Virus record (IMG/VR): IMGVR_UViG_2563366870_000004
Span: 1-42,584 of that record
Direction: 5' to 3' (one strand)
Length of the DNA: 42,584 nucleotides
Origin: a virus
Taxonomy: Duplodnaviria; Heunggongvirae; Uroviricota; Caudoviricetes
Shown here: in pieces, positions 8,122 to 8,865 of the stretch
How the letters are laid out: the number at the start of each line of letters is the position of its first letter
Position numbering within the stretch: position 1 is the first letter of the stretch
Translations under genes and position numbers: made by a program
Notes under the pieces: model-generated
The model's database searches: none
What the model saw: the letters and a program-made list of their open reading frames with translations, nothing else
What the model was told of the DNA's origin: nothing

Positions 8122-8137
8122 GGCCGCAAGAGCGGCC
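8122..8137. terminator. Bidirectional hairpin between convergent genes
   Basis: GGCCGC-AAGA-GCGGCC perfect stem between the 8114 (+) and 8137 (-) gene ends. Confidence 0.5.
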
Positions 8138-8865
8138 TATCGTTTCGCTTTGTGCTCATCCCAGCACGTTTTGCACCATGCCATTAAGCCGTCCGCATTT
8201 TGATTATTAGGGTAAAAGCTGGTTCGTTTTCTGCGGACATTACAAATTGGGCACCACTTCATATGGCGTGTATTCTTTGGGCCATCGAGACACCTTGCAC
8301 ACCACTTAGTCAATCCATCTGGATTTTTTGACGATTTCCTGAATTTTTCATATGGAAGGTTTATTCTGCATCGCAAGCACTGCTTGCTACCACTTGAAAC
8401 TCTGTTAGCTGATTCTTCTTTTGGCGGCGATACAGAAGGTATTCTTGCTGGCTCTGATACTGCCTGAGGTGCTTTTTTAGATGACTGAGACGATATGTCA
8501 TCACCAGGGAATCTTCCATGATATGCCGGACGCGTTGACACTCCAGGTGGAAGCTCAGCTGTAAACGGCTTTGGCTGAATCAGTTGCCTCTCTTTTGCTA
8601 ACTCCTGCTGTTTATAATATGTCTGGATTACCGCACTATCATAAGCAGGAGGTGCGGAAATATTAGGCGCATTACCTCCAGTTTTTTGAAACTGAGTAGA
8701 GGTGTGTTCTATCACCTGTGTACGATTAATCGTTATCTCCCCATCTTCGGTCTTTATCGTTTTGTTATGATTAACGACCGTACGATCAGAGATCTTAGTC
8801 TTGTTCTGGTTGATAACGTAAATAATCACCGCAACCACACCAACAACTATCCAGAAAACTTCCAT
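8137..8865 (-). CDS. Membrane-anchored protein with tandem C-terminal CxxC zinc-ribbon repeats, unknown function
   Basis: N-terminal TM helix, Pro/Ser-rich linker, two repeats of CxxC-x17-20-DGL-x2-WCxxC; GAGGAAAA ribosome-binding site; palindromic operator-like site about 20 bp upstream. Confidence 0.55.
   Translation of the reverse strand: MEVFWIVVGVVAVIIYVINQNKTKISDRTVVNHNKTIKTEDGEITINRTQVIEHTSTQFQKTGGNAPNISAPPAYDSAVIQTYYKQQELAKERQLIQPKPFTAELPPGVSTRPAYHGRFPGDDISSQSSKKAPQAVSEPARIPSVSPPKEESANRVSSGSKQCLRCRINLPYEKFRKSSKNPDGLTKWCARCLDGPKNTRHMKWCPICNVRRKRTSFYPNNQNADGLMAWCKTCWDEHKAKR

What the first reader, a model, noticed from the sequence alone, without database searches (positions are those of the whole stretch)
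8137..8865. Membrane-anchored protein with duplicated CxxC zinc-ribbon repeats under its own palindromic operator
An N-terminal TM anchor, a Pro/Ser-rich linker and two tandem CxxC...DGL..WCxxC repeats is an unusual architecture. The gene is on the opposite strand to its neighbours, AT-rich, and has a perfect palindromic site about 20 bp upstream of its ribosome-binding site. It could be a membrane-tethered nucleic-acid or protein sensor, for example in superinfection exclusion or anti-sigma-like signalling.
Basis: seen in the sequence. Interest (0 to 1): 0.6.

Follow-up and report, generated by a model that had tools for sequence, protein, structure and literature searches.

The report
Membrane-tethered zinc-finger prophage accessory protein
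A conserved but uncharacterised prophage gene encodes a protein anchored in the inner membrane that dangles two nuclease-derived, non-catalytic zinc fingers into the cytoplasm, and its promoter carries a copy of the phage repressor's binding site, so it is a good candidate for a DNA-capturing phage-exclusion factor, with no function shown yet.

Summary
The ORF at 8137-8865 (-) is real. It is intact in all 53 E. coli-type copies examined, and all eight cysteines are invariant in about 30 homologue clusters. The protein has five parts:
- a 2-residue outside tail;
- one conserved transmembrane helix;
- a conserved juxtamembrane segment;
- a roughly 100-aa disordered Pro/Ser linker;
- two duplicated (CxxC)2 zinc repeats, strongly basic (hhalign E 1e-10).

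The repeats match the zinc repeats of His-Me-finger nucleases (Hpy99I, PacI, phage HNH/EndoVII proteins; Stc1-like). They lack the catalytic His and Asn, so they probably bind DNA without cutting it.

The palindrome is real, but it is not the gene's "own" operator. It is the best of 14 TTACC-N5-GGTAA sites in this phiV10-like prophage (0.8 expected by chance). These sites flank the repressor gene and precede many operons. The -10 hexamer (TACCTT) lies inside the operator, and this architecture is conserved across genera. In this phage the gene therefore looks repressor-controlled and would switch on at infection or induction.

The function is inferred only. The most likely role is tethering or blocking DNA at the membrane, as exclusion of competing phages. 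Anti-sigma-like signalling is not supported. This is a new architecture built from known modules, of moderate interest.

The parts
8121..8138 (-). Intrinsic terminator hairpin (AGGCCGCTCTTGCGGCCT followed by TTT) that overlaps the stop codon; end of the cassette
   Evidence: Terminator scan. The hairpin is present in all 53 E. coli-type copies, with variation confined to the loop.
8137..8865 (-). Coding sequence, 242 aa (PHROG 6762, function unknown)
   Evidence: (E 1.1e-150). Intact 242-codon ORF in 53/53 related viral contigs. The exact protein is recorded on at least 1000 contigs, always named 'hypothetical protein'.
8806..8859 (-). Transmembrane anchor (aa 3-20, VFWIVVGVVAVIIYVINQ). Predicted N-out/C-in, with unusually conserved sequence (F4, W5, V7, G9, V10, V11, I18, Q20)
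   Evidence: AF2 helix 3-20 with pLDDT 86-92. Flanking-charge rule holds in 30/30 members. Conservation.
8692..8805 (-). Conserved juxtamembrane segment (aa 21-58, NKTKxSDRTV...TIKTEDGEIxIxRTQV). Predicted beta-hairpin at low confidence; possible oligomerisation or partner-binding element
   Evidence: Invariant or near-invariant N21, K24, T29, T36, K38, T39, G42, E43, T49. Strands 27-39 and 42-54 with pLDDT about 40-50.
8392..8691 (-). Variable, disordered Pro/Ser/Gln-rich linker (aa 59-158). Its length differs widely between homologues, and it is replaced by a coiled coil in Pasteurellaceae relatives
8278..8391 (-). Zinc repeat 1 (aa 159-196; C163, C166, C189, C192); no catalytic His or Asn
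   Evidence: pLDDT above 92; PacI N-terminal Zn motif.
8140..8277 (-). Zinc repeat 2 (aa 197-242; C205, C208, C231, C234) plus a basic C-terminal helix
8872..8876 (-). Shine-Dalgarno GAGGA, 6 nt before the ATG
   Evidence: Direct reading. Conserved in 51 of 53 copies.
8885..8901 (.). Operator O1, ATTACCTTAAAGGTAAT, a perfect 17-bp palindrome. One of 14 TTACC-N5-GGTAA sites in the prophage
   Evidence: Unchanged in 52 of 53 copies. An equivalent site sits at the same position in divergent homologue loci.
8894..8922 (-). Predicted sigma-70 promoter: -35 TTGATC (8922-8917), 17-nt spacer, -10 TACCTT (8899-8894, inside the left half of O1)
   Evidence: Phylogenetic footprint. TTGAyC, exactly 17 nt, then TACCTT is kept in Enterobacter/Citrobacter/Salmonella-type loci, an unnamed group and Serratia despite unrelated spacers. 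Providencia has TTGAAT-17-TAACCT with its own operator type. No transcription start site has been mapped.
8979..8993 (.). Operator O2 (TTACCTTTGCGGTAA), 93 bp from O1. It sits beside the promoters of the divergent isrK/C4/antirepressor operon; context for the shared control region
9030..9951 (+). Divergent neighbour: isrK-like RNA (9030-9106), C4 antisense RNA (9131-9216) and Bro-N antirepressor (9256-9951), forming a P1-type immI module
   Evidence: Rfam at 67.4 and 77.8 bits, above the gathering thresholds. Bro-N E 1.5e-19. The Bro-N protein of the related phage ZX5 behaves as an anti-repressor (PMC9782041).
36669..37253 (+). Prophage repressor gene (two HTH motifs), flanked by operator pairs at 36551/36599 and 37311/37373. 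Presumed binder of O1
   Evidence: 99% identical to phiV10 p40. That protein has the same sequence as ZX5 ORF21, whose overexpression cut lysis-gene transcripts by 99.97-99.99% (PMC9782041).

Best explanation
The gene is a self-contained accessory cassette of a phiV10/epsilon15-like prophage: promoter plus operator, SD, ORF and terminator.

Its product sits in the inner membrane with only Met-Glu outside. After the membrane helix come a conserved juxtamembrane segment and a roughly 100-residue flexible tether. At the end of the tether are two duplicated, non-catalytic (CxxC)2 zinc repeats. These are of the kind that flank, or derive from, His-Me-finger nucleases, and they are strongly basic. 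I infer that they bind DNA without cutting it.

The -10 hexamer of the promoter lies inside a perfect copy of the phage repressor's operator. In this phage the gene therefore belongs to the repressor regulon: off or low in the stable lysogen, and switched on with the early genes on infection or induction.

Proposed action (inferred): the fingers capture DNA close to the cytoplasmic face of the membrane. The most likely role is to interfere with DNA of competing or superinfecting phages, as exclusion or abortive defence.

Shown: gene reality, architecture, duplication, conservation, homology of the fingers, absence of catalytic residues, the operator regulon, and the promoter-operator footprint.
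Inferred: topology, zinc and DNA binding, repression by the repressor, and the biological role.
For: Real and conserved gene:
- 33 homologue clusters, all 8 Cys invariant.
- 53/53 intact copies.
- About 2% of complete E. coli genomes carry it (114 of 5426).

Topology: positive-inside rule holds in 30/30 members. Cys4 zinc sites need a reducing compartment (established knowledge).

Fingers:
- Internal duplication, E 1.2e-10. AF2 pLDDT is above 92 for residues 158-242.
- PHROG 'endonuclease VII'/HNH families match in their accessory regions.
- 34 BFVD structural matches at E<=1e-3 to viral HNH, beta-beta-alpha-Me and 'Stc1 domain' proteins.
- Relatives fuse the same repeats to HNH nucleases and SF1/SF2 helicases.
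- Net charge is +14 and pI 9.9.

Operator:
- 14 sites against 0.81 expected. The same number is found at syntenic places in phiV10.
- Sites flank the repressor gene.
- The repressor is 99% identical to phiV10 p40, a protein shown to silence lytic genes.
- -35, 17 nt, -10 inside the operator is conserved across genera. The operator flavour follows the resident phage: Providencia uses TAACC-N5-GGTTA.

Role:
- Patchy accessory distribution: absent from phiV10, present in TL-2011b.
- Found only in temperate phages and prophages.
- In Aeromonas phage phiARM81mr the homologue lies 19 bp downstream of cI on the same strand, the rexAB-like position.
- The gene sits next to the antirepressor (immI) module. 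From my own knowledge, unchecked here, P22 sieA and P1 sim also sit there.
Against: - There is no experimental datum on this family.
- No PADLOC, NCBIfam or above-threshold Pfam match.
- No known exclusion protein uses zinc fingers.
- An operator over the -10 predicts silence in the lysogen, which is the opposite of classical lysogen-expressed exclusion genes. It also contrasts with the cI-cotranscribed Aeromonas homologue.
- The Haemophilus homologue is wired differently again, with no cI-type operator upstream.
- Stc1-type fingers can be protein-binding. This is from my own knowledge of yeast Stc1.
- The highly conserved TM helix and juxtamembrane segment hint at a specific protein partner that I could not identify.
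- The promoter is a modest consensus match (7/12) and no transcription start site is mapped.
Confidence: 0.4

Rival explanations
1. Organiser of the phage's own DNA. The protein would anchor the replicating, incoming or packaging phage genome to the membrane during lytic growth, in the way phi29 p16.7 does (N-terminal membrane anchor, spacer, C-terminal DNA-binding domain).
For: - The overall architecture is the same. Pasteurellaceae relatives even have TM + coiled coil + fingers.
- p16.7 is an integral membrane protein that recruits phi29 DNA to the membrane (PMC4974454).
- Repressor-controlled early expression fits a lytic-cycle function.
Against: - The gene is dispensable. phiV10, ZX5 and most relatives lack it, and only 114 of 501 E. 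coli genomes that carry the neighbouring leader have it.
- It was not found in virulent phages.
- In the Aeromonas phage it is co-transcribed with cI.
- There is no sequence homology to p16.7.
Confidence: 0.15
2. Protein-sequestering regulator. The fingers would bind a cytoplasmic protein rather than DNA and hold it at the membrane. Candidates are the repressor or antirepressor, a host nuclease, protease or division protein. This would tune the lysis-lysogeny decision or host takeover; it is the 'anti-sigma-like' idea in a broad sense.
For: - The gene is repeatedly adjacent to immunity genes: Bro-N/ANT in E. coli and Serratia, P22_AR in Haemophilus, cI in Aeromonas.
- The Stc1 domain is a protein-binding tandem finger in yeast (my own knowledge).
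- H201-x3-C205-x2-C208 literally matches the ZAS motif (read).
- The conserved TM and juxtamembrane segment suggests a specific partner.
Against: - There is no periplasmic sensor: only 2 residues are outside.
- No zf-HC2 or anti-sigma Pfam hit, and no sigma gene among the ORFs scanned.
- The closest homologues of the fingers are all in DNA enzymes.
- His201 is not kept in wider relatives.
- Antirepressor genes themselves tend to lie in accessory-gene hotspots, so adjacency is weak evidence.
Confidence: 0.2
3. Active membrane-bound nuclease. The tandem repeats would form a working beta-beta-alpha-Me site, as in Hpy99I or PacI, that degrades DNA at the membrane.
For: Hpy99I and PacI are the best solved-structure matches. 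From my own recollection, unchecked here, PacI uses a Tyr in place of the usual His, and repeat 2 has a conserved F217-Y218.
Against: - Neither repeat has the general-base His. The equivalent positions are F175/R176 and F217/Y218.
- The residue after the last Cys, which is the metal-binding Asn in EndoVII and Hpy99I, is an invariant Leu193 in repeat 1 and Trp/hydrophobic 235 in repeat 2 (Hpy99I residues).
- The repeats are about 9 residues shorter than EndoVII between the CxxC pairs.
- No Pfam HNH or Endonuclease_7 hit even at E<=1.
Confidence: 0.03
4. Periplasmic, disulfide-rich protein in the opposite topology, for example spanin-like or a receptor/entry blocker acting outside the cytoplasm.
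For: The layout is a single N-terminal TM plus a Cys-rich C-terminus. Some exclusion proteins (P1 Sim, Cor-type) act outside the cytoplasm (my own knowledge).
Against: - The charge distribution points the other way in 30/30 members.
- The fingers are homologous to cytoplasmic nuclease and helicase modules.
- The Rz-like spanin genes lie in the separate lysis cassette in phiV10.
- There is no signal-peptidase site.
Confidence: 0.03

Closest known systems
Tandem Zn(CXXC)2 beta4-alpha2 repeats of His-Me-finger nucleases (Hpy99I; PacI N-terminal Zn motif; T4 endonuclease VII type)
   Different: Neither repeat here keeps the catalytic Asp-His or Asn. The repeats are shorter. There is no beta-barrel or nuclease core. 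They are attached to a membrane anchor instead.
Stc1-like zinc modules (Pfam PF12898) found N-terminal to phage and giant-virus HNH/EndoVII nucleases and helicases
   Same: Same motif, CxxC-x6-9-F-x6-9-DG-x3-4-[WY]C-x2-C, often in tandem arrays. PHROG, BFVD and profile hits.
   Different: This protein scores 21 bits against the Pfam cut-off of 24.8. It has no enzymatic partner domain. The 'DGLTKWC' pair is far better conserved within the membrane-anchored family than among generic modules.
Phage phi29 p16.7 (membrane-anchored DNA-binding organiser of replication)
   Same: N-terminal membrane anchor, spacer and C-terminal DNA-binding domain facing the cytoplasm; an early phage gene.
   Different: No sequence or fold relationship. 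p16.7 serves protein-primed replication in a virulent Bacillus phage. The gene here is dispensable and restricted to temperate phages.
Superinfection-exclusion genes beside the antirepressor region (P22 sieA, P1 sim) and cI-linked exclusion genes (lambda rexAB)
   Same: Small accessory membrane-associated protein, encoded next to the immI/antirepressor module here, or directly after cI in the Aeromonas phage.
   Different: No homology. SieA is polytopic and Sim is periplasmic (my own knowledge). Those genes are expressed in the lysogen, whereas this promoter is overlapped by the repressor operator.
P1-type control: a repressor with many scattered operators, plus a c4 antisense RNA/antirepressor immI operon
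   Same: About 14 dispersed operators in front of separate operons, including accessory genes. A C4 RNA sits upstream of ant.
   Different: The operator is a 15-17-bp palindrome, whereas the P1 C1 operator is asymmetric (my own knowledge). The repressor is an unrelated two-HTH protein.

Membership tests
His-Me finger (HNH / endonuclease VII / beta-beta-alpha-Me) nucleases | Structural zinc held by two CxxC pairs around a beta-hairpin and helix | tested here: met
His-Me finger (HNH / endonuclease VII / beta-beta-alpha-Me) nucleases | [quoted passage not shown] | tested here: not met
   There is no His inside either repeat. The equivalent positions are F175/R176 and F217/Y218. The only near-invariant His (H201) is in the inter-repeat linker.
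His-Me finger (HNH / endonuclease VII / beta-beta-alpha-Me) nucleases | Metal-binding Asn/His in the helix, just after the second CxxC | tested here: not met
   The residue after the last Cys is an invariant Leu193 in repeat 1 and Trp/Phe/Ile/Val 235 in repeat 2. No Pfam HNH or Endonuclease_7 hit at E<=1.
Stc1 domain (Pfam PF12898) | Score at or above the Pfam gathering threshold | tested here: inconclusive
   21.0 bits against a cut-off of 24.8, E 5e-4. Multi-repeat relatives recovered with this family's profile do pass, at 31-61 bits. One viral structural match is named 'Stc1 domain'.
PHROG 6762 (phage protein family, function unknown) | Full-length match to the family profile | tested here: met
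   E 1.1e-150, residues 1-242 on profile positions 1-242.
Zinc-binding anti-sigma factors (ZAS) | H-x3-C-x2-C motif | tested here: met
   H201-MKW-C205-PI-C208 fits the pattern literally. The His is near-invariant in the close family but absent in wider relatives.
Zinc-binding anti-sigma factors (ZAS) | Helical anti-sigma domain (Pfam zf-HC2) and a partner sigma-factor gene next door | tested here: not met
   No zf-HC2 hit at E<=1. The predicted fold is a beta-hairpin zinc knuckle. None of the ORFs scanned is a sigma factor.
Known anti-phage defence systems (PADLOC-DB) | Match to any defence-protein model | tested here: not met
   0 families at E<=0.1.
Superinfection-exclusion proteins | Blocks entry or development of a superinfecting phage when expressed | not testable with these tools
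   Only positional analogy is available (next to immI; after cI in phiARM81mr). No homology to annotated exclusion families in PHROGs.
Repressor regulon of phiV10-like phages | Operator motif TTACC-N5-GGTAA overlapping the promoter | tested here: met
   A perfect site at 8885-8901 contains the predicted -10. Binding by the repressor itself was not tested.

The most novel reading that the evidence does not exclude
The protein founds a new class of single-gene phage-exclusion or abortive-infection factor. A membrane-tethered pair of degenerate His-Me fingers would catch foreign DNA as it emerges at the cytoplasmic face of the inner membrane. Alternatively it would sense DNA and, through its conserved TM helix and juxtamembrane hairpin, oligomerise to disturb the membrane. 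In either case the resident phage's own immunity circuit would switch it on.
Probability: 0.25. Interest if true: 0.7.

Novelty: new variant of a known kind. Interest (0 to 1): 0.45.

Why it matters
The family is common yet everywhere annotated 'hypothetical'. It occurs in about 2% of complete E. coli genomes, in relatives in Enterobacter, Citrobacter, Salmonella, Serratia, Providencia, Yersinia and Aeromonas, and as a coiled-coil variant in Haemophilus and Pasteurella.

Its architecture puts a nuclease-derived DNA-binding module on a membrane leash, an arrangement I found no description of in the literature searched. If it blocks or senses incoming DNA, it would add a simple, single-gene mechanism to phage-phage competition. 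It would also show how catalytically dead His-Me fingers are re-used.

The analysis further shows that phiV10-like phages control about 14 dispersed promoters through one palindromic operator, and that newly acquired cassettes are plugged into that circuit with the -10 hexamer built into the operator. That makes the expression of such accessory genes predictable and easy to test.

Tried and rejected
Searches that gave nothing useful:
- Pfam gave only a sub-threshold Stc1 hit. NCBIfam and PADLOC gave nothing.
- A sequence search of the PDB gave only weak hits: RING at E 0.96, and PacI at E 0.11 with the family profile.
- The afdb50 fold library was not available.
- The epsilon15 genome paper, which may describe the operators, is not held.
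- Literature searches for the accessions and for TL-2011b, and for exclusion proteins with zinc ribbons, returned nothing relevant.
- The scan of species-representative genomes found only two loci, as expected for a variable prophage gene.

Ideas considered and rejected:
- Chance ORF: rejected by conservation.
- Active nuclease: the catalytic residues are absent.
- Spanin-like or periplasmic topology: the charge rule and the cytoplasmic homologues argue against it.
- Classical anti-sigma factor: there is no sensor, no anti-sigma domain fold and no sigma gene.
- Lar-like restriction alleviation: the PHROG label comes from a shared zinc module only, and Pfam Lar_restr_allev did not hit.
- Activation, rather than repression, of the promoter by the repressor: only 19 nt separate the operator from the ATG, so the -10 must lie in or upstream of the operator.
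- Shared regulation across the whole family: the Haemophilus homologue has no cI-type operator, and the Aeromonas one has no promoter of its own. The operator wiring is therefore lineage-specific.
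Full report
**The observation**

The ORF at 8137-8865 on the minus strand encodes 242 aa. It has five parts:
- a two-residue N-terminal tail (Met-Glu);
- a hydrophobic helix, residues 3-20;
- a conserved polar segment, residues 21-58;
- a Pro/Ser/Gln-rich stretch, residues 59-158 (14 Pro, 13 Ser), which AlphaFold2 leaves disordered;
- two repeats of CxxC-x22-CxxC with the DG(L)xxWC signature, residues 159-196 and 197-242.

A profile-profile comparison of the two repeats gives 97% probability, E 1.2e-10, so the duplication is real. The immediate neighbours are on the opposite strand. 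GC content is 43.6% against 48.0% for the window, so 'AT-rich' is only mildly true.

The palindrome ATTACCTTAAAGGTAAT lies at 8885-8901. It is the only perfect 8+1+8 palindrome in the window. Its near edge is 8 nt from the GAGGA ribosome-binding site and 19 nt from the ATG.

**Where the window comes from**

The window is a complete phiV10/epsilon15-like (Uetakevirus-type) E. coli prophage.
- It matches a chromosome of E. coli EC21Z-151 at 100%.
- The region is 95% identical to phage TL-2011b, where the intact ORF is listed only as a misc_feature.
- phiV10 lacks the gene. The alignment shows an insertion of about 855 bp (roughly 8115-8970) between the gp24/gp19-like ORF and the leader of the antirepressor operon.

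The cassette is self-contained. A terminator hairpin overlaps the stop codon at 8121-8138. In other prophages the same gene lies at other spots and in other orientations within the same accessory region, between the tail spike and the large internal virion proteins.

**It is a real, conserved gene**
- The word-index search found 33 clusters in Escherichia, Superficieibacter, Enterobacter, Citrobacter, Salmonella, Serratia, Providencia, Pectobacterium and Buttiauxella. All are named 'hypothetical'.
- All eight cysteines are invariant in every full-length member, as are much of the TM helix and the juxtamembrane segment. The linker varies freely in length and sequence.
- All 53 close copies in viral contigs are intact at 242 codons.
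- 114 of 5426 complete E. coli genomes carry the gene.
- Phage records add Yersinia phages YeP4-6 and Aeromonas phage phiARM81mr, with the same architecture.
- An exhaustive profile search found about 50 clusters (at 50% identity) with the full architecture. It also found variants in which the linker is a coiled coil (Haemophilus, Aggregatibacter, Pasteurella), and some members without a membrane anchor.

**Topology (inferred)**

In all 30 aligned members the N-side of the helix is 'ME' or 'MQ' (net -1 or 0), and the 15 residues after it carry net +2 to +4. By the positive-inside rule the bulk of the protein is cytoplasmic. Four-cysteine zinc sites also require a reducing compartment. There is therefore no extracytoplasmic sensor domain.

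**What the cysteine repeats are**
- Pfam gives only a sub-threshold Stc1 hit, 21 bits against 24.8.
- PHROGs place the protein in family 6762 (function unknown). They also match both repeats to the accessory, non-catalytic parts of 'endonuclease VII', HNH endonuclease, 'Lar-like' and primase families.
- The C-terminal 85 residues are modelled at pLDDT above 92. In each repeat the first CxxC is a knuckle before a hairpin, and the second opens a short helix.
- Against predicted viral structures there are 34 matches at E<=1e-3. Most named ones are HNH or beta-beta-alpha-Me endonucleases, 'Zn-finger protein' or 'Stc1 domain'.
- Hpy99I consists of two tandem beta4-alpha2 repeats, each holding a zinc with two CXXC motifs. 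Only the second repeat is catalytic (Asp148, His149, Asn165). The first reads the DNA major groove (PMC2699513).
- Proteins recovered with this family's profile carry up to ten such repeats, fused to HNH nucleases, SF1/SF2 helicases or HEAT repeats, and those pass the Stc1 threshold.

In the present protein neither repeat has a histidine. The position after the last cysteine is an invariant Leu in repeat 1 and Trp/hydrophobic in repeat 2, instead of the metal-binding Asn. The domain has net charge +14 and pI 9.9. I conclude that the fingers are catalytically dead relatives of His-Me-finger repeats and most likely bind nucleic acid. Binding itself is not shown.

**The palindrome is the phage's general operator**

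TTACC-N5-GGTAA, allowing at most one mismatch, occurs 14 times in the window against 0.81 expected; none of 100 shuffles reached 14.
- The sites form pairs on both sides of the two-HTH repressor gene: 36551/36599 and 37311/37373.
- Other sites precede the replication-region gene at 34226 (34230/34292), the small terminase subunit (30922/30940) and the tail spike (5872).
- Further sites are at 27728, 10017, the antirepressor operon (8979) and the gene under study (8886).
- phiV10 has 14 sites at syntenic places against 0.58 expected.
- The window's repressor is 99% identical to phiV10 p40. According to PMC9782041 that protein has the same sequence as ORF21 of phage ZX5. Overexpressing ORF21 cut endolysin and holin transcripts by 99.99% and 99.97%, and the Bro-N protein of ZX5 acted as anti-repressor.

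I could not read the epsilon15 and phiV10 genome papers, so these operators may already have been noted there.

**Promoter-operator architecture**

On the gene's strand, TTGATC (8922-8917) is followed by exactly 17 nt and then TACCTT (8899-8894). TACCTT is the left half of the operator.
- The same arrangement recurs with unrelated spacers: TTGACC, TTGATC or TTGAAC, then 17 nt, then TACCTT inside a TTACC-type palindrome. It is seen in homologue loci at 58-63% protein identity and in Serratia.
- In Providencia the arrangement is TTGAAT-17-TAACCT inside TAACC-N5-GGTTA, the palindrome type found elsewhere in that prophage.
- One lineage (L064) lacks a clear -35.
- Among 53 close copies, the stretch from the -35 through the operator is unchanged in 52. 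Substitutions accumulate just upstream of the -35.
- A perfect TTGACA-17-TACCTT/operator unit also sits at 27728, facing a tRNA-Arg gene and a 140-aa ORF.

Only 19 nt separate the operator from the ATG, so the operator can only occlude the promoter. The likely consequence is repression in the lysogen and expression with the early genes on infection or induction. This is an inference; no transcription start or binding has been measured.

The wiring is lineage-specific. In Aeromonas phage phiARM81mr the homologue starts 19 bp after the cI stop codon on the same strand, so it should be made in the lysogen. In Haemophilus prophages it is an opposite-strand gene with unrelated palindromes upstream, one of them a perfect CRP-type TGTGA-N6-TCACA.

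**Mechanism**

The shown facts are these:
- a conserved membrane anchor;
- a long flexible tether;
- a rigid pair of basic, nuclease-derived zinc repeats in the cytoplasm;
- accessory, patchy distribution restricted to temperate phages;
- location beside immunity genes: next to the isrK/C4/antirepressor module here, near Bro-N, KilA-N/ANT or P22-type antirepressors elsewhere, and after cI in Aeromonas;
- integration into the resident phage's repressor circuit.

The reading I favour is that the protein captures DNA at the inner face of the membrane, and that this serves competition with other phages (exclusion or abortive defence). In this phage it would act during infection or induction rather than in the resting lysogen. 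I give the core, a membrane-tethered and repressor-controlled nucleic-acid binder, about 0.7. I give the exclusion role about 0.35.

Rivals are:
- an organiser of the phage's own DNA at the membrane, like phi29 p16.7, at 0.15. The gene's dispensability weakens this;
- a protein-sequestering regulator, at 0.2. The motif H201-x3-C-x2-C is literally ZAS-like, but the fold, the Pfam result and the gene context do not fit an anti-sigma factor;
- an active nuclease, at 0.03;
- a periplasmic protein, at 0.03.

The very high conservation of the TM helix and juxtamembrane segment is not explained by a mere anchor. It suggests oligomerisation or a membrane partner.

**Comparison and novelty**

The modules are known: Stc1-like zinc repeats associated with His-Me-finger enzymes, a single-pass anchor, a scattered-operator repressor regulon reminiscent of P1, and a P1-type C4 RNA/antirepressor unit next door. 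The combination of a membrane leash with a dead nuclease-type finger pair, as a mobile prophage cassette, is not in Pfam, NCBIfam, PADLOC or the literature I could search. I class it as a new variant of a known kind, with moderate interest (0.45). It is well defined, widespread and easy to test, but nothing yet shows a surprising activity.

Noticed in passing
window 9030-9951 (+): The leader of the Bro-N antirepressor gene holds an isrK-like RNA (9030-9106, 67 bits) and a C4 antisense RNA (9131-9216, 78 bits). Short repeats at 9050-9062/9216-9228 and 9069-9087/9247-9265 look like the paired target sites of P1 C4 RNA, the second set covering the ant ribosome-binding site. This is a P1-type immI module in a podovirus-type prophage.
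   Followed up: partly
window 3429, 5872, 8886, 8979, 10017, 27728, 30922, 30940, 34230, 34292, 36551, 36599, 37311, 37373: There are fourteen TTACC-N5-GGTAA palindromes (0.8 expected), and the same number at syntenic places in phiV10 (L091). They flank the two-HTH repressor gene and precede most operons, late genes included. This is a dispersed-operator regulon like that of P1 C1. Several pairs are 62 bp apart, and O1-O2 are 93 bp apart.
   Followed up: yes
window 8979-8993 compared with L002 4317-4331: The five central bases of the antirepressor operator are inverted relative to phiV10 (TTTGC here and in TL-2011b, GCAAA in phiV10), while the arms are the same. The site is exactly at the right-hand border of the inserted cassette. 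Recombination within palindromic operators may be how such cassettes move.
   Followed up: no
window 27690-28763 (+): A consensus TTGACA-17-TACCTT promoter, with its -10 inside the operator at 27728, faces a tRNA-Arg(TCT) gene (28065-28141) and a 140-aa ORF with no family match (28341-28763). Both are opposite in strand to the surrounding head genes. This is a second cassette with the same wiring.
   Followed up: partly
window 7842-8114 (+): The 90-aa ORF next to the gene is a free-standing copy of the C-terminal domain of the antirepressor: PHROG 450 matches both this ORF and residues 148-229 of the Bro-N protein. It is conserved in phiV10 (p24) and epsilon15 (gp19).
   Followed up: partly
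window 6574-7794 (+): An ISL3-family insertion sequence (transposase with Zn_ribbon_ISL3, HTH_Tnp_ISL3 and DDE_Tnp_ISL3 domains) sits between a DUF1706 gene (6037-6555) and the 90-aa ORF. It is absent from TL-2011b and phiV10 at this position.
   Followed up: partly
window 10017-12268: Further accessory genes of unknown function lie between ant and the virion genes:
- an operator at 10017 followed by small ORFs;
- a 288-aa protein with N-terminal hydrophobic segments (10267-11133, PHROG 3630);
- a small putative secreted Cys/Gly-rich peptide (within 11154-11387);
- a 283-aa protein with a signal-like N-terminus (11417-12268, PHROG 6118).
None has a Pfam or PADLOC match.
   Followed up: partly
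L092 6898-6913 (Haemophilus influenzae prophage): Upstream of the coiled-coil variant of the gene lies a perfect CRP-type site, TGTGATCTAATTCACA, and a second palindrome, GCTGAATATATTTATTCAGC. Neither resembles the TTAAG-type palindromes between cro and cI of that prophage. Enterobacter- and Citrobacter-type loci carry TGTGACATGTCACA just upstream of the -35.
   Followed up: no
L001 4307-5395 (phage TL-2011b) and L009 1900-2634 (Yersinia phage YeP5): These are annotation issues. TL-2011b lists the intact 242-codon ORF only as a misc_feature that also spans the RNA genes. The YeP5 homologue is annotated with about 29 extra N-terminal codons. It also carries a (KT)x7 repeat right after the membrane helix.
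   Followed up: partly
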